Sequence record: MN158210.1
DNA length: 52,716 nt
Reading direction: 5' to 3' (one strand)
From: Escherichia phage BEK12A
In this document: positions 1-44,680 of the stretch, piece by piece
Numbering within the stretch: the first letter of the stretch is position 1
Layout of the letters: every line of letters starts with the position of its first letter
Notes under the pieces: model-generated
What the model was told of the DNA's origin: nothing
The model's input: the letters and a program-made list of their open reading frames with translations, nothing else
Databases searched by the model: none
Made by a program: the position numbers and the translations under genes

Positions 1-528
1 ATGGCTAAAAATGTTGAGCCTGCTGTAAAGGCATTAAATTTCAAAGAGTTATACAATAAAACTTATGGCGATATTGTCACGCTAAACAACCGCCACAAGT
101 ACACGCCGGAACAGGTTTTTGATATGGCGATCCGCTATTTCACTTGGGCCGAAGAGAATCACATCCAGGCGGCTGAAACTGCTTCCTTTCAGGGTGACGT
201 GTACGAGAGCAGAGTTTACAAGCCTCGCGTTTTCACGGTTAACGGATTCAGCTTGTATCTCGGCGTGACTGAGGCTGCCGTAAGCAAATGGCGTAAAGAG
301 CCTGGATTCTGCGATGTGATGGAGTTTGTTGATAAAGTAATTTACGAGCAAAAATTCCAGCTTGCGGCAAATAACATGATTAACGCTGGATTTATCGGTA
401 AAGAGATCGGAGTAGAGAAGCCAGCAACAGTGAGCGTTGAAGCGAGCGCGGCAGCTAATGCAAGCATTGACGCAGTAACTGCCGATGAGGTTAAAGAGGC
501 TGTGATTGATATTCTGGAGAAGATATAA
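1..528 (+). CDS. putative terminase small subunit
   Basis: 175-aa ORF directly upstream of the terL/HNH block; RBS GGAGGA sits at the extreme 3' end of the window (circular permutation); position-based call. Confidence 0.5.
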   Translation: MAKNVEPAVKALNFKELYNKTYGDIVTLNNRHKYTPEQVFDMAIRYFTWAEENHIQAAETASFQGDVYESRVYKPRVFTVNGFSLYLGVTEAAVSKWRKEPGFCDVMEFVDKVIYEQKFQLAANNMINAGFIGKEIGVEKPATVSVEASAAANASIDAVTADEVKEAVIDILEKI

Positions 529-1019
529 TGAACTACTCAGATTACTTTGTCTTATCTGACGAATCGCCAAGCGGCTTGAAATGGAAGGTTAACAAAGGTA
601 GATCTAAGGTTGGAGATAACGCGATAACTGCTATCAGTGGCGGCTACTATAAAGGCCGCCTTAACCAAAAAACTGTATATGCGCACAGAATTGTGTTTGC
701 ACTTTACTATGGCTTTGAGCCTGATGTTGTTGATCATATTGATGGTGATGGTTTGAACAATAATCCGTTAAATTTAAGGGATGGAACAAAAGCAACGAAT
801 AATCAAAACCGCGTGGTGTTTGGGGCTTACTATCACAAAAGGGATGGTGTTTTTTATTCCTCGATATGTGTTAACGGTGAAAGGTATCATTTAGGAACAT
901 TTAAAAGTGAGATTGAGGCAAGGGCTGCGTACATTTCAGCAAAGCCAAAATTTCACGAGTTCGCAAATATGGAGAGGTATAAACATGCTAATTTGGGAAG
1001 ACTTGACGCCAGCGCATAA
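528..1019 (+). CDS. HNH homing endonuclease (HNH plus AP2-like DNA-binding domain)
   Basis: HRIVFALYYG...DHIDGDGLNNNPLNLRDGTKATNNQNR motif; C-terminal AP2-like segment; overlaps terS stop (ATAATGA). Confidence 0.85.
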   Translation: MNYSDYFVLSDESPSGLKWKVNKGRSKVGDNAITAISGGYYKGRLNQKTVYAHRIVFALYYGFEPDVVDHIDGDGLNNNPLNLRDGTKATNNQNRVVFGAYYHKRDGVFYSSICVNGERYHLGTFKSEIEARAAYISAKPKFHEFANMERYKHANLGRLDASA

Positions 1020-2553
1020 AAGAGCAATCAAGGAAATGAGCGAGCACTCATTCGAAAAGATGATCAGAATATGGTTTCCTCTTTTGCAAGGTCAGAAATT
1101 CTTAGGAAACTGGCATTTCAGCTACCTATGTAGCGAAGTTGAAAAAATAATCAAAGGAGAGTCGCAGAATGTGATTTTCAACATTACGCCAGGTAGCGGT
1201 AAGACTGAGATTTTCTCGATCCACATGTCACCCTACGCGTCATTGAAAAGCCGGAAAGTGAGAAACCTTAACCTTTCGTTTAGTGATGGCCTTGTCCAGC
1301 AAAACAGCAACCGGATAAAGGAGATTATTGGTTCTCCTGAGTGGCAAGAGCTATGGCCTGGAAAACTGGCAAAGGCGAGCGCTAAAGATCTGATAGTCAC
1401 CGAAGGCGGCAAGGTTAAATTGCAAGTTAACTCACGTTCTATTGGCGGCCAGGTAACAGGTTTGCGTGGCGGCTATATGGATGATGGTTTTACTGGTATG
1501 CTGGTTCTTGACGATCCAGACAAGCCGGATGACATGCTTTCTAAGGTCAAGCGCGAGGCTATTCACATGCGGTTAAAAAACACAGTGCGATCGCGTCGAA
1601 TGAAAGACACCACGCCAATTGTTATGGTGCAACAGCGACTACACGTTAATGATTCCACCTGGTTCATGCTTAATGGCGGGATGGGTGGTATTGAGTTTAA
1701 AGTTGTGAGCATTCCGGCGCTGGTTACGAAAGAATACCGCGAAACGCTTCCTGATTGGTTAAGGCATGAGTTTGATCGCGATGTTTTGTCCAGCAAGCCA
1801 GTAATGATTGATGGAGTTGCTCATTATTCATTCTGGCCTGCTAAGGAAAGCGCGGAGGAATTACTTGCACTTCGCAATGCTGATCCGTACACGTTCGCTA
1901 GTCAGTACCAGCAACAGCCTGTTGCGCTTGGCGGTAACGTGTTTAAAACAGAGTGGTTTCAGTATTACGGCAGCAGCGAGAAATGCACGCTACCAAAACC
2001 GGATCGCTTTGAATATACATTTATCACGGTTGATACCGCGCAGAAAACAGGTGAGCTTAACGACTACTCCGTGATCTGTTATTGGGGGATGTATAAAGAT
2101 CGCGTTTACTTCATTGATGGTGTTCGCGGAAAATGGGAAGCACCAGACCTTGAGACTAATTTTGTTGCGTTCGTTAATCAGTGCTGGAAGCGCAATAAAG
2201 AATGCGGAACGTTGCGAAGGATTCATGTTGAAGATAAGTCATCTGGTACTGGCTTGATTCAGAGCGCAGCGAAAAAAATCATGATCAAGATCAATCCCGT
2301 TCAGCGAGATAAAGATAAGGTTACGCGAGCAATGGACGCAGCACCAGTAATGCGCGCCGGACGCGTGGCACTTCCAGAATCGCATCCTATGCTGGCTGAG
2401 ATACTCGCTGAAGTTGCGGCGTTTACATTCGATGATAGCCATCCTCATGATGATATTGTTGACACATTGATTGATGCCGTTAATATAGAAATGAACTTGG
2501 CAGACGATCCAGTTGGAAGAATGAAGAAGTTAGCAGGGCTTAGAAAGAGATGA
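985..2553 (+). CDS. terL: terminase large subunit
   Basis: ATG at codon 27 of the 907..2553 ORF preceded by GGAGAGG; Walker A-like NITPGSGKTE; C-terminal nuclease-like acidic residues; size typical. Confidence 0.85.
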   Translation: MLIWEDLTPAHKRAIKEMSEHSFEKMIRIWFPLLQGQKFLGNWHFSYLCSEVEKIIKGESQNVIFNITPGSGKTEIFSIHMSPYASLKSRKVRNLNLSFSDGLVQQNSNRIKEIIGSPEWQELWPGKLAKASAKDLIVTEGGKVKLQVNSRSIGGQVTGLRGGYMDDGFTGMLVLDDPDKPDDMLSKVKREAIHMRLKNTVRSRRMKDTTPIVMVQQRLHVNDSTWFMLNGGMGGIEFKVVSIPALVTKEYRETLPDWLRHEFDRDVLSSKPVMIDGVAHYSFWPAKESAEELLALRNADPYTFASQYQQQPVALGGNVFKTEWFQYYGSSEKCTLPKPDRFEYTFITVDTAQKTGELNDYSVICYWGMYKDRVYFIDGVRGKWEAPDLETNFVAFVNQCWKRNKECGTLRRIHVEDKSSGTGLIQSAAKKIMIKINPVQRDKDKVTRAMDAAPVMRAGRVALPESHPMLAEILAEVAAFTFDDSHPHDDIVDTLIDAVNIEMNLADDPVGRMKKLAGLRKR

Positions 2554-3032
2554 ATTGGCACGATATTTTCTATATAGAAGATGATAAGCTATTCAATAAA
2601 GTTGATAGGGGAGCAAGGGCAATGGCTGGCAAGGAGGCTGGCTGCTTGCATAAGAATAGCGGTTATGTAGTTGTAAGGGTTGACGATAAGCTGCTAAAAG
2701 CGCATAGGATAATTTACGAAATGCGCCACGGTGCAATACCAGAAGGAATGGAGGTTGACCACATAGACCACAATAGATCAAACAACTCTGACAGCAATCA
2801 TAGGCTGGTTACGCATAAGGAAAATACACAAAACGTAACAAGGAGAAAGACAAACAACAGTGGTTGCACTGGTGTTTATTGGTATGAGTCAAGATCAAAA
2901 TGGTGGTCTTTTATTGGAACTGGCAAGGGCAGAAAATCACTTGGCTATTATTCTGACTGGTTTGATGCCGTTTGCGCCAGAAAGAGAGCGGAGTTTGAGC
3001 TTGGTTATCACGAAAACCACGGCAAGAAATAG
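2550..3032 (+). CDS. HNH homing endonuclease
   Basis: HRIIYEMRHGAIPEGMEVDHIDHNRSNNSDSNHRLVTHKENTQN; paralog of 528..1019; overlaps terL stop. Confidence 0.85.
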   Translation: MNWHDIFYIEDDKLFNKVDRGARAMAGKEAGCLHKNSGYVVVRVDDKLLKAHRIIYEMRHGAIPEGMEVDHIDHNRSNNSDSNHRLVTHKENTQNVTRRKTNNSGCTGVYWYESRSKWWSFIGTGKGRKSLGYYSDWFDAVCARKRAEFELGYHENHGKK

Positions 3033-21850: not shown

Positions 21851-22118
21851 TTTTGCACCTCAAATCAATGAATTTTCTTTCATCTTGCCAACGGTTGATA
21901 AATTTAACTTCTTTATTGTCAACGCTCAACCTGTATTGCTTTTGGCTGAATCTGTTTTCGCGGACCGCATTAATTTTAACTTCATGGAATCCGTTAACAG
22001 GGAATGTTTTAACGTTAAATTTTGCCGTGCAATCGATCTCCTTGAAGTTGCCAGTAGGCGAAGAAGAACATCCGGTCAGGGCGGCTACGGTGGCGATAAC
22101 TGCGATTAATTTTTTCAT
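21843..22118 (-). CDS. lipoprotein, candidate superinfection-exclusion (Cor/Llp-like) protein
   Basis: MKKLIAVIATVAALTGCSSS signal peptide with lipobox; RBS AAGGAG; first gene of leftward operon next to tail tip gene. Confidence 0.5.
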   Translation of the reverse strand: MKKLIAVIATVAALTGCSSSPTGNFKEIDCTAKFNVKTFPVNGFHEVKINAVRENRFSQKQYRLSVDNKEVKFINRWQDERKFIDLRCKNG

Positions 22119-22173
22119 CTTCAATACTCCTTAGTTGTTGTTGGCTGTAACTATACACGATCCGGCAAGCCGA

Positions 22174-22192
22174 GTTTAGCAAAAAGTGCTAT
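22174..22192 (-). promoter_or_regulatory. conserved 20-bp box upstream of leftward lipoprotein operon (variant GCTAAAC)
   Basis: minus strand reads ATAGCACTTTTTGCTAAAC, then 18 bp, then TATAGT. Confidence 0.5.
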
Positions 22193-22254
22193 TTGTTATT
22201 TTTTGTTTTCCGGTGTTATCGGATTTAAGACGGCGTAAATTTAGCGCAAATCTT

Positions 22255-22460
22255 AGCCAACATAAGAACAATAAATAATCAATAAAATAGATATATACAT
22301 ATAAAATCAATAGTTTATTTATTTATGTATGTATATTTGTTTTTTCTTGTTATCTGTGTTTCTTGTGGTTTTGGTTGTTTGTGGTGATTTTTCTTTCTGA
22401 GTATCTGTATGTGCCATCATTCATGTGTATGTATATAATCCGGCGTATCTGAGAGAACAA
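22255..22460. repeat. AT-rich noncoding repeat region A (homologous to 43890-44030)
   Basis: TATTTATTTATGTATGTATATTTG..TTGTTATCTGTG..TTGTGG..TTTGG..GTATCTGTATGTG shared with region B. Confidence 0.6.
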
Positions 22461-22561
22461 GGGAACAAGAAAAATAACACATATTAATCATTAACTTACT
22501 CGTCAAATTTGTTTTATTGCCATCTGAGAACGTTTAGAAAACAGAAAAAACAAAACAACTA

Positions 22562-22589
22562 TTGACTAAATCAACCAAATGGCTACAAT
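22562..22589 (+). promoter_or_regulatory. sigma-70 promoter (TTGACT-16-TACAAT) for recombination operon
   Basis: near-consensus hexamers about 30 nt upstream of the 22620 start. Confidence 0.6.
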
Positions 22590-22619
22590 GCACACACAAA
22601 GCAACGAGGAGCATTAAAG

Positions 22620-36364: not shown

Positions 36365-36686
36365 CGCCCATCTCCCCTATTCTCGCCATATCCCTGATCC
36401 AGTCGTTGCGCATACCATCCAGGCTATACAATTCGAATCCGAAAGGCCGCTTTGATGATCCTTTGGACCAGTATTTTCCGCAGACCCCATCTATATAACC
36501 AGCCGTCATCATTCTTGCGCAAAATTCCTTAGATGCAAGGCTGGCGAACATTCGCGGCGTAAGTCCGGCGGCCCGCGCGAGCCGCTCGCATTCTCTATGC
36601 TGATAGATAAATTTGGCTATGTGCTGCCTGTTAAACCAGTCGTATGACTCACACCATTTATACAGATCAAGCAAAAACATAATCAT
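36291..36686 (-). CDS. hypothetical protein
   Basis: 131 aa, start overlaps stop of ATPase gene. Confidence 0.45.
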   Translation of the reverse strand: MIMFLLDLYKWCESYDWFNRQHIAKFIYQHRECERLARAAGLTPRMFASLASKEFCARMMTAGYIDGVCGKYWSKGSSKRPFGFELYSLDGMRNDWIRDMARIGEMGDDELFQAKANRQDLEALRRKFNIT

Positions 36687-38263
36687 CCCAGCAGTATTGG
36701 ATTGACAAAAATAACACCATTAATCACGCAAACATAATTTCTTTCTTCCAGCATTGGCAGCAAGTGCCCCTCTATCCTCTTCATTACGCCAGCCTGACCA
36801 ACGAAAGGTTTTACCTTTCTCGCTGATTCGTACAGGGCGCGAATATTCAGGATCCCTTTGTTAGCCTTGCCGTGCCTCGTGATCAATTCAATCAATTTAC
36901 CCATTTCAGCATCATCACCAGCATAACCAGAAGCATTGGCGGCGCTAATGTATGTTTTGCTCAATTCATGAAACATGATCAGCGCCTCTTGCATTGTTTC
37001 AACGTCGATCTCTTTCGACTTCTGCGGGTATCCAGCAGGATTAAACCAGTTGCGGATAACATGCAGGACGGAAGCAAGCCTGATCACCTGTTTATCCATT
37101 TTACCCAGCGCACCGCGTAACATTGTATGAGAATACTTTCCGCCGTCTGCAAGATGCGGTTCCATATCCTGGCGAGCAATGTTGAGCACTCGCATAGCTG
37201 AACGGCTTATTTTCAGCGATATATTTGATTCGCTCATGATGTTATGCACCAATTGATAATATTGGGCCTTCAATTCAGGATCCACCGCCTCATAGGTAGA
37301 ATCACCATTTTCATCAATGAATGAGCGACGGCCTAAGAATGATTCCTCACGGACCAACAAAAAGCGCTCACTCACACCGATACCGCGCGATCCAGCGTCC
37401 ATGATTCCGCTTATCGTTTCATCCTGGGCTATAACGCTCATACATCCAAGCGCGCGAAAACTCATGTTATTGTCAGCATTAGCACGGGCGATTGATACGT
37501 GACCATTATCCCACGCCTTAAGCACTAGCTCGCTGTTAGTCTTCCTTTCGCTATTGGCATATGTCAAGCCTAACAGGCTGTTAATACTTGTTGCTTCGTC
37601 AGATATTACGGCAAAGTTACCTTGCTTGTTGTTGATTTTCGCCAAGCCTTCTGGAGTTGTATCTGAAACAGGGAAAGTTATATCACACATTTTTTCCAGC
37701 TTCTCCTCCAGATCCTCTTTTTCCTGGTATAGAGATTCCATATCAGCGCCTGATCTTTCGCTTTTCATCTCCTTTGCAAGACCTGCCAACTTTGCCTGTA
37801 TTTTCTTTCTTTCCTTGCGGCGTTGCTCGTTGATCTTCTCAACTTCCGCAATCATCGGAGCAATAGCCATGCTGTTGATCGCAGATTTACCAGTTGACGG
37901 CGGCTGGCTTGTAACGACGTAAAGCGCAGTCGGCTGATCGGTCCCGTGATAGTCAACCGTAAAGCGTCCAAGCATGGCGGCAGAAATGCAGCCGATAAAG
38001 TGCATGTAAGCCGATGATTCAGGGAATTGAATGGATCGCGCAATACTGCGTGATAACTTTCCGACAACATCAATATCATTACCAAGAGAAATGACGGGGT
38101 AGCGATCGTGACCGCTATTTACATCCTTTACGTCGCCCCAAAAGCTGGACGACTGGCGATAGCCGTTAGCCTGAATTGATACGCGAACTGGTGAAAGGTT
38201 CTGGCTTTCAGCCATAGCGATTATTTGCTGTGGAGTTAATTTGTTCGTTTCTAATGAAAACAT
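36683..38263 (-). CDS. P-loop NTPase of unknown function
   Basis: Walker A-like QPPSTGKS and Walker B-like AVISDEAT separated by a charged coiled-coil segment; RBS AAAGGAG. Confidence 0.5.
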   Translation of the reverse strand: MFSLETNKLTPQQIIAMAESQNLSPVRVSIQANGYRQSSSFWGDVKDVNSGHDRYPVISLGNDIDVVGKLSRSIARSIQFPESSAYMHFIGCISAAMLGRFTVDYHGTDQPTALYVVTSQPPSTGKSAINSMAIAPMIAEVEKINEQRRKERKKIQAKLAGLAKEMKSERSGADMESLYQEKEDLEEKLEKMCDITFPVSDTTPEGLAKINNKQGNFAVISDEATSINSLLGLTYANSERKTNSELVLKAWDNGHVSIARANADNNMSFRALGCMSVIAQDETISGIMDAGSRGIGVSERFLLVREESFLGRRSFIDENGDSTYEAVDPELKAQYYQLVHNIMSESNISLKISRSAMRVLNIARQDMEPHLADGGKYSHTMLRGALGKMDKQVIRLASVLHVIRNWFNPAGYPQKSKEIDVETMQEALIMFHELSKTYISAANASGYAGDDAEMGKLIELITRHGKANKGILNIRALYESARKVKPFVGQAGVMKRIEGHLLPMLEERNYVCVINGVIFVNPILLG

Positions 38264-38335: not shown

Positions 38336-38553
38336 TTGATCCGCTCTATTGCAACCAGAAGTCGATCAGGCTGGCGGTCGCTGTAGCATTCTCCTGTAAT
38401 CCCATCCTTAAACGTAAAGTAAAGCGCCTTATGATATGAAAAACCAATCAGCCAACCTACCGACGTTTTTTTGATGGGCCTGACTATATCGCCAGGCTTG
38501 AAGGTTTTTGTTGCTGAATTAGTAACCTTATAGCGATATTCAGTCTTGATCAT
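38332..38553 (-). CDS. hypothetical protein
   Basis: ATG at codon 40 of the 38670 ORF, overlapping HNH stop; about 73 aa; stop TAG in box. Confidence 0.4.
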   Translation of the reverse strand: MIKTEYRYKVTNSATKTFKPGDIVRPIKKTSVGWLIGFSYHKALYFTFKDGITGECYSDRQPDRLLVAIERIK

Positions 38554-39061
38554 AAGGCTTCTCGCTTCCGTGGTTTTCGTGGAATCCGTACTTTTTCCAA
38601 ATAGCATCTCTTGATGATACAGCGCTATCAATTGATGCATGATAACCACCAGAAATACACCTGCCATCAACAGTTACTTGTACGCACCATTTAGACACCC
38701 TCTTATTCCACATCACGCCAGTATAACCAGATTTATTTGTCGATCTCCTTGTGTGGTTTTGTGAGTTTTGTTTTCTTGTGACAAGCCGGAGGTTTTCGAT
38801 TCTATTGTCATCTCTTATGTGATTCACGTGATCTATCTCCATTCCTTTTGGTATTGTTTTTCCATGCATCCACCAAACAATCCAATGCGCCGGATACTCT
38901 CTGCCACCAATACCTATACGTCTATATCCGTTTTTAGTTATATAACCTGCCTCATCGCCAATTTTTGCCCGTCTTCCTGATGGGCTTTTCCATAATAGAC
39001 GACCATTTTCATATATAAATAAATTTAGAAGTACTTGCCTTGAAATTCCGCTATTGCACAT
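38540..39061 (-). CDS. HNH homing endonuclease
   Basis: HWIVWWMHG...EIDHVNHIRDDNRIENLRLVTRKQNSQN. Confidence 0.8.
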   Translation of the reverse strand: MCNSGISRQVLLNLFIYENGRLLWKSPSGRRAKIGDEAGYITKNGYRRIGIGGREYPAHWIVWWMHGKTIPKGMEIDHVNHIRDDNRIENLRLVTRKQNSQNHTRRSTNKSGYTGVMWNKRVSKWCVQVTVDGRCISGGYHASIDSAVSSRDAIWKKYGFHENHGSEKPYDQD

Positions 39062-39327: not shown

Positions 39328-40010
39328 TTTGAGTTTGACTCAAAGACGGCGCGAGCAAATCCGCGCGGAGTGAGGGAGCGTAGTTGCTTTGTTCTGGCAG
39401 ACTTACCGCCTAAAAACTTCCAACCCCAAAAGAACATTACGCCCTCATCATTGGATAACGGCTTGCGTTCCGGTTCTGTAAATCCGTTGCCGCACCAGAT
39501 AGCAGTCCTTTTTGTGTAGCCATCCTTTAGCGGCATCTTGGGGTGAAAAGATCCATCGGATTCGTCCAGGTAGTTACCAAAATCGCGAGGATTGAAATAA
39601 AAATCAGGCTTGCGCCATAGCGTTGATAGTCGGCCTACAGGATTCTCAGCCATCCAGGGAACACCGAAATGATTCCCGACAGTTTCAACCATGATTGCAT
39701 TTTTGAGCGCAACCTGAATATCATCATCGCTTCGCACGTGCTTGATTCCTGATTGGGCAAACATGGTGCAGTCTGGAAATCCAAATACAATATCTGGTTT
39801 TGGAATACCAATCTTACTGATTCTTTCAATGAAATTTTCATCAATCCACATATTCACATAATGCAGATTTTCATGTTTCATCTTGATGAAATATTCGCCG
39901 TGATTGCCTTCATCAGCGTTAAAGCAATAGCATTGATAGCCAGCCTTCGCATATTCAAGCAGCATGATTCCAGATCCATCAAACATTGAGTAAGCAACTT
40001 TATTTCCCAT
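39324..40010 (-). CDS. putative DNA methyltransferase-like protein (divergent C5-cytosine MTase-like motifs)
   Basis: FDGSG (motif I-like), GFPDCTMFAQSG (PC-motif-like with an insertion), ENPVG (ENV-like); divergent, so assignment is tentative. Confidence 0.35.
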   Translation of the reverse strand: MGNKVAYSMFDGSGIMLLEYAKAGYQCYCFNADEGNHGEYFIKMKHENLHYVNMWIDENFIERISKIGIPKPDIVFGFPDCTMFAQSGIKHVRSDDDIQVALKNAIMVETVGNHFGVPWMAENPVGRLSTLWRKPDFYFNPRDFGNYLDESDGSFHPKMPLKDGYTKRTAIWCGNGFTEPERKPLSNDEGVMFFWGWKFLGGKSARTKQLRSLTPRGFARAVFESNSK

Positions 40011-40527
40011 GATTTTTATGATACCCCAATTCATTCTCGGCTTTACGTTTTGCGGCAACAGCATCTCCAAAACTGGAAAAACAACCTATATAAATCCTAC
40101 TTCCTCTCCTTCCGCCTCCAACCCTTACAACCCATTTGCCATGTTTATTTTTATGCACACCTGGTATGCCACTTGTATTGTTTTTCTGCTTTGATGTGTT
40201 TCGCATATTTCCTTTGTGATCTTTTAACTCAAAGTTTATTGCTCTGTTATCAGTCGTAATGTGATTTACGTGATCAACCTCCTTTCCTTCCGGTATAGGC
40301 CCATAGTGCATTTCATAGCATATTCTATGAACTTTCAGGTTATAACGTTTTCCGTTTACAGTAAGTGCAGTTTCTAAATATCTGCCACCACTACCCAAAG
40401 AGCCAACCTCATTACCAGCATTGCAAGCATTCCATTGTTTAACTCTTGATGGGTGAATATCTTTTCTTTCTTTCCAGAACAGCTTTCCAGTTTCTGGATT
40501 GTATGTAAAGTAATCGTGCCAATTCAT
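40000..40527 (-). CDS. HNH homing endonuclease (HNH plus AP2-like)
   Basis: HRICYEMHYGPIPEGKEVDHVNHITTDNRAIN; C-terminal AP2-like segment similar to 528..1019. Confidence 0.8.
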   Translation of the reverse strand: MNWHDYFTYNPETGKLFWKERKDIHPSRVKQWNACNAGNEVGSLGSGGRYLETALTVNGKRYNLKVHRICYEMHYGPIPEGKEVDHVNHITTDNRAINFELKDHKGNMRNTSKQKNNTSGIPGVHKNKHGKWVVRVGGGRRGSRIYIGCFSSFGDAVAAKRKAENELGYHKNHGK

Positions 40528-41255: not shown

Positions 41256-41537
41256 CTAATTAATGCCAACAACGTTAAAACTTACAGCTTTTGTTGCGCT
41301 AAATACATACGCTTCAACAGCCTCACCAAATACACGAATTTTACCCTGGCCGTACTGCGCATTCATATTTCGCCAAACCGTTCTATTAGAGCAGAATGCG
41401 CTACCAGTCTTAATAAGCGTATCCATCTCTTTTCTTAGATCGCGATAGTCAAGCCAGAATCTAAAGGCGCGCTGTTTAATTCGCGCCGCCTTGATTTTTT
41501 CTCTTGCGCTATTGAAATCATTCTTTTCGTATGCCAT
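41256..41537 (-). CDS. hypothetical protein
   Basis: 93 aa, basic. Confidence 0.45.
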   Translation of the reverse strand: MAYEKNDFNSAREKIKAARIKQRAFRFWLDYRDLRKEMDTLIKTGSAFCSNRTVWRNMNAQYGQGKIRVFGEAVEAYVFSATKAVSFNVVGIN

Positions 41538-41734
41538 TAAATGATCTCCATGTATGTTTCAAAGCCATTTAACTTGAACAGGCCGTTTTCACATTTGCGC
41601 ACGTTCCAAGTTAGCCCTGAGTGGTACGCCTCCATATCATCAAGGTCAATGGTGATTTCAGCACCTTTCTTAAACAAACCTTTTTCGTGAGACTTGTCGC
41701 GCTTAACAACTTTAACATCAACCTGATTTTCCAT
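41537..41734 (-). CDS. hypothetical protein
   Basis: ATG at codon 18 of the 41785 ORF with RBS GAGGA; about 65 aa. Confidence 0.45.
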   Translation of the reverse strand: MENQVDVKVVKRDKSHEKGLFKKGAEITIDLDDMEAYHSGLTWNVRKCENGLFKLNGFETYMEII

Positions 41735-43015: not shown

Positions 43016-43269
43016 TTTTTCTTCTCCTGCAATAAGCAAACATCATTGATAAAATCAGCACGGCCCTTAATGTTGCTGATGTGGAACGTCTTTTCAGCGT
43101 ACAGGCCATCACCTTCAATCACGATCATTACGCGAGTCGGTTTATTCACGGGCGCACACGAAAAGAGTGGTCGCGCCGGAAGAAATTTAGTCATCACATC
43201 CAGGTTAGCCCTGGCGGCCCTGCAAAATGCCTCCGCCAGATCCAAATCATTTTCGGTAATCACCGCCAT
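43003..43269 (-). CDS. hypothetical protein
   Basis: 88 aa, ATGA-type coupling to upstream gene. Confidence 0.45.
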   Translation of the reverse strand: MAVITENDLDLAEAFCRAARANLDVMTKFLPARPLFSCAPVNKPTRVMIVIEGDGLYAEKTFHISNIKGRADFINDVCLLQEKKKCWM

Positions 43270-43541
43270 TACTTCTTGATCTCCTCACTGATAAATTTCA
43301 GCACCTGACGTAAGAAAACCTCGTTGTTGATAGTCGCTGGCAATTCTTCTTTCACTTCTTGCGGCAGATAGATATTGCCGTGCCAGGTCAAGCAATCGTA
43401 GTTGATGCGATAAGAGCAAAGCCACTCGCAATCGTTATCTGCTTCCCAAATGCAGAGTTGCAGAACATCGCCAAAATCCTCAACAGTCAGATCCAGACCG
43501 TGACGCTTAGCGAAGTTGAAAGTGGTTTTGCTGATGTTCAT
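43269..43541 (-). CDS. hypothetical protein (first gene of leftward early operon)
   Basis: 90 aa; RBS CAGGAGA. Confidence 0.5.
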   Translation of the reverse strand: MNISKTTFNFAKRHGLDLTVEDFGDVLQLCIWEADNDCEWLCSYRINYDCLTWHGNIYLPQEVKEELPATINNEVFLRQVLKFISEEIKK

Positions 43542-43575
43542 TGCTATCTCCTGAGCGGTTCGTTTCGATGTGTGT

Positions 43576-43619
43576 AATGTACCCGATCAGGTGGTCTGAG
43601 TTTTAACAAAAAGTGCTAT
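43576..43619 (-). promoter_or_regulatory. conserved box - TACATT - CATCGAAACGAA module heading the leftward early operon
   Basis: minus strand ATAGCACTTTTTGTTAAAAC, then 18 bp, then TACATT; no gene upstream, so it acts as operon leader. Confidence 0.6.
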
Positions 43620-43644
43620 TTGACGGTTAGCGCCAGGATTGTGA

Positions 43645-43745
43645 TCGAAATAATCAAAAGTAATCATTCGTAATCAAATCACGTCAAAATGATGATTGCC
43701 TTTGCAAATTTTATGAGAAAAGTAATCACGTTTAATCATTGGTTG
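43645..43745. repeat. phased TAATCA direct repeats (iteron-like)
   Basis: TAATCA at about 43651, 43661, 43671 (10-bp phasing) and again near 43723 and 43734. Confidence 0.5.
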
Positions 43746-43889
43746 CAGGGGAGATAGTGAAACCTTCCCCTCTTGCCTCACTTTTTTGCCTGGCTGTCAG
43801 TGGTTGTTATGTTCCGTTCCCTCCTGTTCTTTTGTTGACCTTCCGCAAAATACGATAACAAAAAATAACAAACAATACCTATATAATAC

Positions 43890-44030
43890 ATTGAAAAATA
43901 AGGATTATTTATTTATATGTATCTATATATTCTCTTTTGTTATCTTGGTTATTGTGGTATTTGGTGGGGGTATATAGTTTTTGTGTATCTGTATGTGTGT
44001 ATGGGTATGTAGGGGCATATATATCTATAT
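43890..44030. repeat. AT-rich noncoding repeat region B (homologous to 22255-22460)
   Basis: TATTTATTTATATGTATCTATAT..TTTTGTTATCTTGG..TTGTGG..TTTGGTG..GTATCTGTATGTG. Confidence 0.6.
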
Positions 44031-44158
44031 GGCGCTTTCCGCGAGAAAACTTCGATAACAGGCAATGATAACATTGATTTATAAGGAAAAATAACTCCTA
44101 TATTGTTATTGTGCCACCATATAAAATTGATAAAACACGCAGGAACAAGAAAAAACAG

Positions 44159-44187
44159 TTGACACATTAAATAGCATTATTGATAAT
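44159..44187 (+). promoter_or_regulatory. consensus sigma-70 promoter (TTGACA-17-GATAAT) for rightward early operon
   Basis: perfect -35, 17-bp spacer, good -10, about 30 nt upstream of 44216 start. Confidence 0.7.
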
Positions 44188-44215
44188 GCCCACACCTAAC
44201 AACCAGGAGGCAGAA

Positions 44216-44680
44216 ATGAGCGAGCAATCATTCACTGACACGCTGCGCCGTGCCGCTATTATGCTGGCTAATGGCGAGGAAGAGACGATCAAGATTCCTG
44301 ACGCGTATTTGCAGGTCCACATGTTCGGCAAGAAGTCGGCAAGCAATCCGGCGGCCTACATTCGCCAGATCATGAGTCGAGTGCCAGAAGTCGCCGAGCG
44401 GGGGCGCGTATCCGTTACCCGTGGCGTTTACGGGCCGGAAGATGAAAACTTCGGTAGCACTTTCTACGAGGTGCGCATTGTTGAAGGCCGTCGCAAGGTT
44501 TACAACAAAGAGGCACTGGAAAGGGCAGTACGCCAGGCTAAGCGCAAGGTTGCAGAGGCGATCATTGATATGTCACCAAACCTGGCAAACTATGCGCCGG
44601 AAGAGTACGAAACATTATCAAAGGCCGTCGCTGACTTTCACGCGATGATCAAAAAAACTTTCCTGGAGGATGAGCAATGA
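44216..44680 (+). CDS. hypothetical early protein
   Basis: ATG at codon 13 of the 44180 ORF with RBS AGGAGG; about 154 aa. Confidence 0.5.
   Translation: MSEQSFTDTLRRAAIMLANGEEETIKIPDAYLQVHMFGKKSASNPAAYIRQIMSRVPEVAERGRVSVTRGVYGPEDENFGSTFYEVRIVEGRRKVYNKEALERAVRQAKRKVAEAIIDMSPNLANYAPEEYETLSKAVADFHAMIKKTFLEDEQ

What the first reader, a model, noticed from the sequence alone, without database searches (positions are those of the whole stretch)
43645..43745. Helically phased TAATCA iterons
TAATCA occurs three times at exactly 10-bp spacing (about 43651, 43661, 43671) and twice more at about 43723 and 43734 (11-bp spacing), all in the same orientation and adjacent to the leftward early operon leader. 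Same-face phasing is typical of cooperative protein binding sites (origin iterons or operator arrays). The motif also occurs in region A (near 22275 and 22486).
Basis: seen in the sequence. Interest (0 to 1): 0.55.

Follow-up and report, generated by a model that had tools for sequence, protein, structure and literature searches.

The report
Phased TAATCA repeats at probable pac site
Five same-strand TAATCA repeats, spaced one DNA turn apart in a T1-like coliphage, are real and non-random; they most likely mark where the phage's small terminase binds to start DNA packaging, not a replication origin, but this has not been tested by experiment.

Summary
The window is Escherichia phage BEK26 (Drexlerviridae, Warwickvirus), rotated to start at terS. 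TAATCA occurs on the + strand at 43651, 43661, 43671, 43723 and 43733. It is the densest same-strand hexamer cluster in the genome, and no simulated genome matched it.

The array lies in the 674-bp gap between the divergent early operons, just upstream of the leftward promoter. That gap is syntenic with the ends of the T1 and TLS GenBank records. Their junctions align to about 43694 and 43705, inside the 46-bp spacer between the two clusters.

The ~130-bp array module occurs in exactly the 60 phage records that carry the BEK26-type small terminase. The neighbouring winged-helix-like gene and the leftward early gene do not track it. Hanrivervirus has a different TGATTAA arrangement and a different TerS allele.

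Best reading (~0.45): a lineage-specific pac recognition array. Rivals: an operator or upstream site for the leftward promoter (~0.25), curved DNA (~0.1), origin iterons (~0.07).

By-product: the unexplained 21-nt T1-like repeat fits the MarA/SoxS/Rob marbox consensus in class II promoter geometry.

The parts
43651..43676 (+). Left cluster: three TAATCA copies (43651, 43661, 43671) at exactly 10-bp spacing. On the strand of the leftward genes they read TGATTA.
   Evidence: identical in 15 aligned Warwickvirus sequences except one A>G at 43676 in tonnikala
43681..43686 (+). Degenerate fourth phased unit (ACGTCA; TGACGT on the other strand), 10 bp after the third copy.
   Evidence: read from the sequence; a related locus, L016, has a 10-bp phased TGAC/TGAT array at the same place
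43677..43722 (.). 46-bp spacer between the clusters. It contains the box ATGATGATTG (43689-43698), which is shared with T1 and TLS. This is the predicted position of the first packaging cut, by homology only.
   Evidence: global alignments put the T1 record junction at about 43694 and the TLS junction at about 43705; T1 has repeat_region 1..2800 annotated; TLS pac was restriction-mapped (PMC11447400)
43723..43738 (+). Right cluster: two TAATCA copies (43723, 43733), 10 bp apart and in helical phase with the left cluster.
   Evidence: 43723 is C in three of 15 relatives, so the core there is AATCA
43748..43771 (.). G/C-rich box GGGGAGATAGTGAAACCTTCCCC (imperfect hairpin) that bounds the module on the right. 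Its sequence is conserved across Drexlerviridae lineages.
   Evidence: module identity within the genus breaks at about 43828
43576..43619 (-). Predicted leftward early promoter P_L. A 20-mer, ATAGCACTTTTTGTTAAAAC (43600-43619), is followed by an 18-nt spacer and a -10 hexamer TACATT (43576-43581). It is one of 13 copies of the T1-like '21-nt repeat' cassette.
   Evidence: the repeat is described for TLS in PMC11447400
43269..43541 (-). First gene of the leftward early operon (90 aa, phrog_6147, function unknown).
   Evidence: 97.8% identical in Hanrivervirus BEK7, although the array differs there
1..528 (+). Small terminase (TerS, P22 gp3-like). This is the proposed trans-acting partner of the array.
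   Evidence: PF16677 at E 3.7e-11; phrog_606; the allele co-occurs 60/60 with the array module

Best explanation
The TAATCA array is the lineage-specific recognition part of the phage's pac (packaging initiation) site.

Two in-phase clusters sit either side of a 46-bp spacer: three copies plus one degenerate copy on the left, two on the right. The proposed mechanism is as follows. The oligomeric P22-gp3-type small terminase contacts the hexamers along one face of the DNA. It bends or wraps the ~130-bp module and positions the large terminase to make the first cut in or near the spacer. Headful packaging then runs rightward through the rightward early operon towards terS.

Shown here:
- the repeats and their phasing;
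- the array is unique in the genome;
- the T1 and TLS genome starts map by synteny and alignment into the spacer;
- the module co-occurs exactly with the TerS allele;
- the module is not linked to the alleles of its neighbouring genes.

Inferred, not shown:
- that TerS binds these hexamers;
- that BEK26 is cut here;
- the direction of packaging, which is taken from T1 and TLS.
For: (1) Location. The window is BEK26. The 43542-44215 gap separates a leftward operon (helicase and small genes) from a rightward operon (pnk ... terS, terL). This is the same layout as the two ends of the T1 and TLS records.
- T1 annotates the terminal repeat as 1..2800.
- TLS pac was mapped by restriction digests to this point, and the pac-HindIII fragment runs rightward (PMC11447400).
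- For SU57, a step in read coverage places the start of the terminal repeat in the equivalent untranslated region (PMC7718038).
- The alignments are anchored by the promoter cassette, ATGATGATTG, ATTTTrTGA and the G/C box. They put the T1 junction at about 43694 and the TLS junction at about 43705, both inside the 43677-43722 spacer.

(2) Co-variation. The 131-bp module (43630-43760) is found in 60 phage records at 96.9-100% identity. TerS at 97.7% identity or more is found in 60 records. The two sets are identical. No TerS falls between 80% and 95% identity.
- In Hanrivervirus the alternative module occurs in 64 records and its TerS allele in 63.
- BEK26 against BEK7, amino-acid identity: TerS 75%, but TerL 91%, portal 98.6% and the first leftward gene 97.8%. 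TerL identities form a continuum.

(3) Lack of linkage to neighbours. Phages with the identical array carry DUF7174 alleles only 28-30% identical to BEK26's. The leftward gene allele is shared with phages that have the other array.

(4) The array is the only such cluster in the genome. The AT-rich core of the same gap has a paralogue in region A, so it is a poorer candidate for a unique pac site.

(5) The core AATCA/TGATT is the most enriched 5-mer in this module across 8 Drexlerviridae lineages: 33 observed against 10.4 expected, z 7.2.

(6) From my own knowledge: the architecture resembles known pac and cos sites, where repeated small-terminase sites flank or adjoin the cut (P1 pac hexamers, SPP1 pacL/pacR, lambda cosB).
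Against: - No packaging ends have been mapped for BEK26 or any Warwickvirus. I could not read the T1 genome paper, so I do not know how T1 position 1 was chosen.
- The TLS start is a restriction-mapping estimate that was refined by a weak 6-nt resemblance to P22 pac.
- An earlier proposal placed T1 pac at ATATA repeats about 200 bp to the right (cited in PMC8421802).
- From my own knowledge, P22-type gp3 terminases recognise a single asymmetric site inside their own gene, not phased hexamers. BEK26 has no P22-pac-like 22-mer anywhere: best 16/22 in the genome, at most 12/22 in this gap.
- The array/TerS co-occurrence is confounded by genus membership. Other Warwickvirus-specific genes were not scanned.
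- Within the genus the hexamers are not significantly more conserved than their spacers: 2 of 30 hexamer columns vary against about 14 of 90 others, by my count.
- In Hanrivervirus the motif forms a perfect palindrome (TTAATCA-NN-TGATTAA). That arrangement is more typical of a dimeric regulator's operator.
Confidence: 0.45

Rival explanations
1. Operator or upstream-activator array for the leftward early promoter. An unidentified phage protein, or a host protein, binds the phased hexamers 70-180 bp upstream of the P_L start. It activates early leftward transcription or later shuts it off, for example by oligomerising along one face of the DNA or by looping between the two clusters.
For: - The array starts about 30 bp upstream of the P_L cassette.
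- The promoter-proximal part of the module is lineage-specific in the way operators are. Hanrivervirus has a perfect TTAATCA-NN-TGATTAA palindrome plus GGAATAA inverted repeats. TLS has two tandem AGACCGATTGGTCT palindromes.
- P_L lacks a -35 element and probably needs an activator.
- From my own knowledge, arrays of about 10-bp phased direct repeats are known operators (P2 Cox boxes, 186 Apl).
Against: - P_L and its first gene are 93-98% identical in Hanrivervirus, yet the array is replaced there. The array is therefore not tied to this promoter.
- Twelve other copies of the same promoter cassette have no such array.
- No sigma70-type promoter overlaps the array.
- None of about 30 early proteins matches a DNA-binding family.
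- The adjacent winged-helix-like DUF7174 allele is not linked to the array.
Confidence: 0.25
2. Sequence-directed DNA curvature, possibly with non-specific nucleoid-protein binding. The 10-bp repetition of A-rich units (AAAAGTAATCA...) creates a static bend upstream of P_L. The bend boosts RNA polymerase binding, and no dedicated sequence-specific protein is involved.
For: The 10-10.5-bp phasing of AA/TT dinucleotides at 43674-43733 is in the 99.95th percentile of the genome and is the sixth-highest peak. The repeats carry A-tracts in phase.
Against: - Curvature needs only phased A/T tracts, not five exact copies of one hexamer in one orientation.
- The core AATCA is enriched in lineages whose spacing is not helical, such as a 5-6-bp period in TLS and a palindrome in Hanrivervirus.
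- Five other places in the genome have equal or stronger phasing without hexamer repeats.
Confidence: 0.1
3. Replication-origin iterons. A phage initiator binds the repeats and melts the AT-rich core about 150-300 bp to the right.
For: - Direct repeats lie near an AT-rich, repeat-laden core at 43850-44110.
- The origin of T1-like phages is unknown (PMC11447400).
Against: - The same array coexists with DUF7174 alleles only 28-30% identical to BEK26's. The AT-rich core co-varies with DUF7174, not with the array, with a breakpoint at about 43828.
- The repeat core is 6-7 bp, not iteron-sized.
- GC-skew turns simply follow gene orientation.
Confidence: 0.07
4. Sites for a host OmpR/PhoB-type response regulator. 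GTAAT-N5-GTAAT resembles the CpxR box GTAAA-N5-GTAAA, so early phage transcription would be tied to the host's envelope-stress state.
For: Three of the five copies read GTAATCA, with 10-bp centre-to-centre direct repeats. That spacing is typical of winged-helix response regulators. The CpxR consensus is recalled from memory and was not tested here.
Against: - Each half-site matches only 4 of 5 positions.
- The arrangement is replaced by a palindrome in Hanrivervirus phages isolated on the same E. coli K-12 strains, K514 and MG1655.
- No binding-site library was available to score the match.
Confidence: 0.05

Closest known systems
Phage P1 pac site (TGATCA/G hexamer clusters bound by PacA on either side of the cut)
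   Same: Short hexamer repeats in one orientation form two clusters (3+2 here, 4+3 in P1) either side of a central region where the genome end maps. The site is unique in the genome. Even the hexamers are similar: TGATTA against TGATCA.
   Different: - The P1 hexamers contain GATC and are regulated by Dam methylation. Here there is only one GATC nearby, at 43643, and it lies outside the hexamers.
- The P1 terminase (PacA/PacB) is unrelated to the gp3-type TerS.
- Binding and cleavage are unproven for BEK26.
- The P1 details are from my own knowledge.
SPP1 pac (pacL boxes a/b, pacC cut, pacR box c) and lambda cosB R-sites
   Same: Phased, bend-associated small-terminase sites lie next to the cut, outside the terminase gene. 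The specificity pair (TerS and its site) differs between related phages.
   Different: - The TerS families differ: SPP1 G1P and lambda Nu1 against P22 gp3-like PF16677 here.
- The repeat sequences and sizes differ.
- No IHF consensus site lies in or beside the array, unlike lambda cosB.
P22/Sf6-type pac sites (same TerS family)
   Same: The TerS belongs to the gp3 family. Packaging is headful from a pac site, as shown for T1 and TLS.
   Different: P22 pac is a single asymmetric 22-bp sequence inside gene 3. BEK26 has no such sequence. In T1 and TLS the mapped start lies about 8-9 kb upstream of terS, in an intergenic region.
Phased direct-repeat operators (P2 Cox boxes, 186 Apl sites)
   Same: Several short direct repeats at about one helical turn, next to an early promoter.
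   Different: Those belong to temperate-phage switches with an identified small regulator encoded alongside. No such protein was found here, and the array is not linked to the promoter next to it.
Plasmid and lambda origin iterons (RepE, Pi, lambda O)
   Same: Same-orientation repeats in helical phase lie near an AT-rich stretch and next to a gene with a weak winged-helix-like fold.
   Different: The repeat core is 6-7 bp rather than 17-22 bp. The array does not co-vary with the adjacent protein. The TLS authors found no iterons in that genome.

Membership tests
pac site (packaging initiation site of a headful phage) | Lies where the first packaging cut, i.e. the fixed genome end, maps | tested here: inconclusive
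   By homology only. The T1 and TLS record junctions align to about 43694 and 43705, between the clusters. TLS pac was restriction-mapped. The SU57 coverage step lies in the equivalent untranslated region. No end data exist for BEK26.
pac site (packaging initiation site of a headful phage) | Single copy per genome | tested here: met
   It is the only 5-copy same-strand hexamer cluster in the window. The module sequence has no second copy.
pac site (packaging initiation site of a headful phage) | Specificity co-varies with the small terminase | tested here: met
   The 60 records with the module are the same 60 records with TerS at 97.7% identity or more. In Hanrivervirus the counts are 64 module records against 63 TerS-allele records. 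TerS is 75% identical between the genera, while TerL is 91% and portal 98.6%. Caveat: this is confounded by genus-level descent.
pac site (packaging initiation site of a headful phage) | Bound by TerS and cut by TerL | not testable with these tools
   Needs a gel shift or footprint and end mapping.
Replication-origin iterons | Repeats of about 17-22 bp adjoining an AT-rich unwinding element | tested here: not met
   The core is 6-7 bp on a 10-bp period. The AT-rich core begins about 130 bp to the right, beyond the G/C box.
Replication-origin iterons | Co-inherited with a cognate initiator encoded nearby | tested here: not met
   The adjacent DUF7174 allele varies from 28% to 100% identity among phages with the identical array.
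Operator array of a transcription regulator | Overlaps or closely adjoins the core promoter it controls | tested here: inconclusive
   The array lies about -70 to -180 from the predicted P_L start. No promoter lies inside it.
Operator array of a transcription regulator | A cognate DNA-binding regulator is encoded by the phage | tested here: inconclusive
   About 30 early proteins gave no DNA-binding family in Pfam or PHROGs. Most have no known function, so a regulator cannot be excluded.
IHF-assisted terminase or operator site | IHF consensus WATCARNNNNTTR in or beside the array | tested here: not met
   There are 11 matches genome-wide and none between 43542 and 44215.
CpxR/OmpR-type response-regulator site | Tandem pentamer half-sites at 10-11 bp matching the regulator's consensus | not tested
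   GTAAT-N5-GTAAT against GTAAA-N5-GTAAA, recalled from memory. No matrix library was available.

The most novel reading that the evidence does not exclude
The array serves two purposes. It is the small-terminase landing pad for packaging, and because it sits directly upstream of the activator-dependent leftward early promoter, it is also a switch. As terminase accumulates late in infection, its wrapping of this DNA would shut off or insulate leftward early transcription. Packaging initiation and the end of the early programme would then be coupled through one cis element. The element swaps together with terS between T1-like genera.
Probability: 0.1. Interest if true: 0.65.

Novelty: new member of a known kind. 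Interest (0 to 1): 0.45.

Why it matters
T1 was one of the original 'T' phages. Its pac site has been known genetically and by restriction mapping since the 1980s, but it has never been defined at the sequence level. The TLS authors could assign theirs only by a 6-nt resemblance to P22.

If the phased TAATCA clusters are the terminase recognition site, three things follow:
- They give a concrete, mutable ~130-bp candidate pac for Warwickvirus.
- A different but related candidate exists for Hanrivervirus, which forms a natural specificity-swap pair with TerS.
- They show a gp3-family terminase using an intergenic, repeat-based site far from its own gene.

That would help in engineering T1-like phages and transducing particles, and in orienting genome records correctly.

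The by-product may matter more. The unexplained '21-nt repeat' of T1-like phages matches the marbox consensus in class II geometry. This turns an explicitly posed open question into a simple experiment.

Tried and rejected
- An exact-pattern scan of IMG/VR for TAATCA-N4-TAATCA-N4-TAATCA returned 120+ unrelated period-10 tandem repeats, including in giant viruses. It was uninformative.
- A literature search for the cassette sequence as a string found only unrelated primers.
- The T1 genome paper and the Rtp paper are not held. I therefore could not check how T1 position 1 was chosen, or the 'ATATA' pac proposal.
- There is no P22-pac-like 22-mer, no IHF site in the gap and no Rfam family. The scan found no sigma70-like promoter or terminator inside the array.
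- Conservation within the genus is uninformative, because the relatives are 95-100% identical here.
- I tested DUF7174 as the array's binding protein. It gave a confident model with only generic winged-helix-like fold matches. I rejected it as the specific partner because its allele is not linked to the array.
- The word-indexed homologue search found only 2 relatives. The profile alignment was too diverse for the search for related loci.
- The XY3 record ends just after the array. It is deposited as circular and no termini paper was found, so it gives no evidence.
- Papers on KanT1, MSK and the UPEC phages gave no end coordinates.

Full report
**Identity and setting**

The window is the complete 52,716-bp genome of Escherichia phage BEK26 (MN158216.1; Drexlerviridae, Tempevirinae, Warwickvirus). 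It is rotated, so that window coordinate = record coordinate + 22177 and position 1 is the start codon of terS.

The finding lies in a 674-bp non-coding gap (43542-44215) between two divergent early operons.
- The leftward operon has 20 genes on the minus strand, from 43541 down to the helicase at 36683-38263 and beyond.
- The rightward operon has about 25 genes. It runs from 44216 through polynucleotide kinase to terS and terL.
- The rightward operon has a near-consensus sigma70 promoter, TTGACA-17-GATAAT, at 44159-44187.

**The observation**

TAATCA occurs on the + strand at 43651, 43661, 43671, 43723 and 43733. All five copies fall on about one helical face.

No other hexamer in the genome reaches five same-strand copies within 90 bp. 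None did in 200 simulated genomes, where the maximum was 4. Tandem Repeats Finder calls a period-10 array. The clusters share a longer 21-nt unit, AAAAGTAATCAnnnKTAATCA. A degenerate fourth unit (ACGTCA, 43681) continues the phase.

**What sits next to the array**

Immediately to the left (43560-43625) is one copy of a cassette that recurs 13 times in the genome, always in the direction of the local genes. Each copy has four parts in order:
- the 20-mer ATAGCACTTTTTGYTAAAAC;
- an 18-nt, often hairpin-forming spacer;
- a sigma70-type -10 hexamer (TACATT, CATAAT, TATAAT and similar);
- a conserved CATCGAAACGA leader, followed by the ribosome-binding site.

This is the "21-nt intergenic repeat" reported for TLS, T1 and Rtp. 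The TLS authors list its function as an open question (PMC11447400). Distant relatives have an ordinary TTGACA-17-CATAAT promoter at the same place. I therefore read the cassette as the leftward promoter P_L. The TAATCA array then lies about 70-180 bp upstream of its start, so it is not in the leader itself.

To the right of the array come several further elements:
- a conserved G/C-rich box (43748-43771);
- GATAAC/GTTATC repeats;
- an AT-rich core and a GT-rich stretch, which have a paralogue in the other large divergent gap of the genome (region A, 22135-22619);
- the rightward promoter.

**Comparative anatomy**

Fifteen Warwickvirus versions of the region are 95-100% identical. All five hexamers are kept, apart from one A>G at 43676 and one T>C at 43723. 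Variation in the spacers is not significantly higher, so conservation within the genus says little.

Outside the genus, similarity stops abruptly at about 43625, the edge of the promoter cassette. In Hanrivervirus (BEK7, pSf-1, haarsle) the equivalent module has the same word in a different arrangement. There is a perfect palindrome, TTAATCA-NN-TGATTAA, plus one TGATTAA set inside GGAATAA inverted repeats.

TLS has a TTGAT(T) tandem run and two AGACCGATTGGTCT palindromes. T1 has GATGTGATTGTTGC twice, and CGATTAACA three times near its rightward promoter.

Across eight lineages, AATCA/TGATT is the most enriched 5-mer in the ~170 bp between the promoter cassette and the G/C box. I counted 33 against 10.4 expected (z 7.2), and it is present at least twice in every lineage. 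The null 95th percentile of the maximum z is 5.0. So the core word is family-wide, while its number, spacing and orientation are genus-specific.

**Where the genome ends map**

The gap is syntenic with the junction of the T1 and TLS GenBank records. In both, the leftward small genes and the helicase sit at the right end. The rightward small genes, pnk, terS and terL start at the left end.
- T1 annotates its 2.8-kb terminal repeat as 1..2800.
- The TLS authors mapped pac by restriction analysis of the sub-molar pac fragment, then fixed position 1 by a 6-nt resemblance to P22 pac.
- For SU57, a step in read coverage put the start of the terminal repeat in the corresponding untranslated region. 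Its authors state that pac lies there in T1-like phages.

The alignments are anchored by the promoter cassette, the shared box ATGATGATTG, ATTTTrTGA and the G/C box. They place the T1 junction at about 43694 and the TLS junction at about 43705. Both fall inside the 46-bp spacer (43677-43722) that separates the two TAATCA clusters, almost at its centre.

**Which trans-acting gene travels with the array**

I compared the distribution of the array module with the alleles of nearby and candidate genes in 50,697 phage records.
- The 131-bp module (43630-43760) is present in 60 records at 96.9-100% identity.
- The BEK26-type small terminase (97.7% identity or more) is present in 60 records. The two sets are identical.
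- No TerS lies between 80% and 95% identity. The next class, at 60-80%, includes Hanrivervirus.
- In Hanrivervirus the alternative module (64 records) and its TerS allele (63 records at 95% or more) match in the same way.
- Between BEK26 and BEK7, TerS is 75% identical, while the adjacent TerL is 91%, portal 98.6% and the first leftward gene 97.8%. TerL identities form a continuum.

The array module is therefore a small mosaic unit with recombination breakpoints at about 43625 and about 43828. It is inherited with terS, 9 kb away, and not with either neighbour.

**Interpretation**

The best-supported reading is that the array is the recognition part of the pac site. The reasons are its location at the homologue of the mapped packaging start, its uniqueness in the genome, its architecture of two phased clusters around a central spacer, and its exact co-occurrence with a sharply bimodal TerS allele. 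The TerS is a P22-gp3-family protein (PF16677; phrog_606).

I infer, but have not shown, that its oligomer contacts the hexamers along one face, bends the DNA and directs the first cut into or near the spacer, with packaging then proceeding rightward as in T1 and TLS. I give this reading 0.45.

The weaknesses are real:
- No ends are mapped for this genus.
- The basis of T1's position 1 could not be checked.
- The TLS position is approximate.
- An older proposal put T1 pac at ATATA repeats in the AT-rich core.
- From my own knowledge, gp3-type terminases elsewhere use a single site inside their own gene. No such sequence exists here.
- The co-variation is confounded by genus-level descent.

**Rival readings**

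- *Operator or upstream activating array for P_L (0.25).* The palindromic versions in Hanrivervirus and TLS favour it. Against it, the same promoter and first gene occur with a different array, the other twelve cassette promoters lack any array, and no regulator could be found.
- *Pure curvature (0.1).* AA/TT phasing here is in the 99.95th percentile. But exact hexamer identity, and enrichment of the motif in arrangements that are not helically phased, argue for sequence-specific recognition.
- *Origin iterons (0.07).* The repeat size, the distance to the AT-rich core and the lack of linkage to DUF7174 all disfavour it. If anything in this gap is origin-like, it is the right half (43829-44215), which co-varies with DUF7174.
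- *A host response-regulator site, resembling the CpxR box from memory (0.05).* This is untested.

**Novelty and interest**

Phased repeat arrays at pac or cos sites, and at operators, are known kinds. This would be a new member, in a phage group whose pac site has never been defined in sequence. That makes an old question directly testable, with a natural specificity-swap pair (Warwickvirus against Hanrivervirus). I score interest at 0.45.

**By-product**

The 20-mer of the recurrent promoter cassette fits the marbox consensus AYnGCACnnWnnRYYAAAYn at 13 or 14 of the 14 specified positions. There are 15 genomic hits with at most one mismatch, against 1.2 expected. Thirteen of these are ATAGCA-type 20-mers; eleven of them coincide with the cassette copies found, and at most of them a -10 hexamer follows 18 nt downstream. 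The 20-mer reads in the forward orientation and ends 18 nt before the -10 hexamer, so its centre is near -40. That is the class II geometry described for MarA/SoxS/Rob promoters (PMC12052159).

The positions that vary among TLS repeat subtypes (ATAGCACnnnTTGnTAAAA) are, except the last, unspecified positions of the marbox. I found no paper in the held library that links the two. It is a sequence-level resemblance only. DUF7174 is not MarA-like.

Noticed in passing
window 43600-43619 (-) and at least 10 further copies: 22173-, 31402+, 32913+, 39308-, 41790-, 42296-, 44946+, 45940+, 49296+, 50590+; variant copies near 7284-, 27346-, 36159+ and 38321+ (+ and - give the strand): The recurrent '21-nt repeat' of T1-like phages (ATAGCACnnnTTGnTAAAAC) has no known function; the TLS paper poses it as an open question. 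It matches the MarA/SoxS/Rob marbox consensus AYnGCACnnWnnRYYAAAYn at 13-14 of 14 specified positions. At most copies it reads in the forward orientation and ends 18 nt upstream of a sigma70 -10 hexamer, with no -35 element, which is class II marbox promoter geometry. There are 15 hits with at most 1 mismatch against 1.2 expected. No paper linking the two was found.
   Followed up: partly
window 43829-44680, and region A at 22135-22619: The right half of the gap holds GATAAC/GTTATC repeats, an AT-rich 'tatttatttatatgtat' core, a GT-rich stretch and the rightward promoter. It co-varies with the allele of the first rightward gene (DUF7174, weakly winged-helix-like), with a breakpoint at about 43828. 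It also has a paralogous AT-rich/GT-rich core in region A, upstream of the exonuclease/recombinase/SSB operon. It may be an origin-like or early-promoter module.
   Followed up: partly
window 44216-44680: The DUF7174 protein evolves very fast at a fixed position. It is 100% identical in 12 records but 23-60% in close relatives whose flanking genes are 97% or more identical. The motif YIRxxMxRVPEV is conserved. The AlphaFold model has pLDDT 86.6, and no solved structure matches beyond generic winged-helix similarity.
   Followed up: partly
whole window: GTTATC/GATAAC is over-represented genome-wide: 52 copies against 22 +/- 4.9 expected. Four copies lie in the 43542-44215 gap and two in region A (a third, at 22095, lies just inside the flanking gene). 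The reason is unknown.
   Followed up: no
window 41537-41734 (-): A small early protein matches Pfam PF25180, 'phage antiviral trigger protein Gp54', at E 1.7e-38.
   Followed up: no
window 528-1019 and 2550-3032: Homing endonuclease genes are inserted between terS and terL and directly after terL. Two more lie in the leftward operon (38540-39061 and 40000-40527). BEK7 lacks the terS/terL insertion.
   Followed up: no
window 43269-43541 (-): The 90-aa first gene of the leftward operon has homologues at 50-65% identity in unrelated large coliphages (JSE/RB49-like T4 relatives, phi92/rV5-like phages, Av-05). There it sits behind ordinary sigma70 promoters, so it is a mobile early gene.
   Followed up: no
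related GenBank records MG0656xx: About 20 records named 'Campylobacter phage' (host Campylobacter jejuni) carry Hanrivervirus-type terS, the array module and early genes at 95-99% identity to coliphages. This suggests contamination or a wrong host assignment in those deposits.
   Followed up: no
window 43748-43771: The G/C-rich box GGGGAGATAGTGAAACCTTCCCC (imperfect hairpin followed by a distant T-run) is conserved in sequence, rather than in pairing, across Drexlerviridae lineages, just right of the repeat module. Its function is unknown, and it was not scored as a terminator.
   Followed up: no
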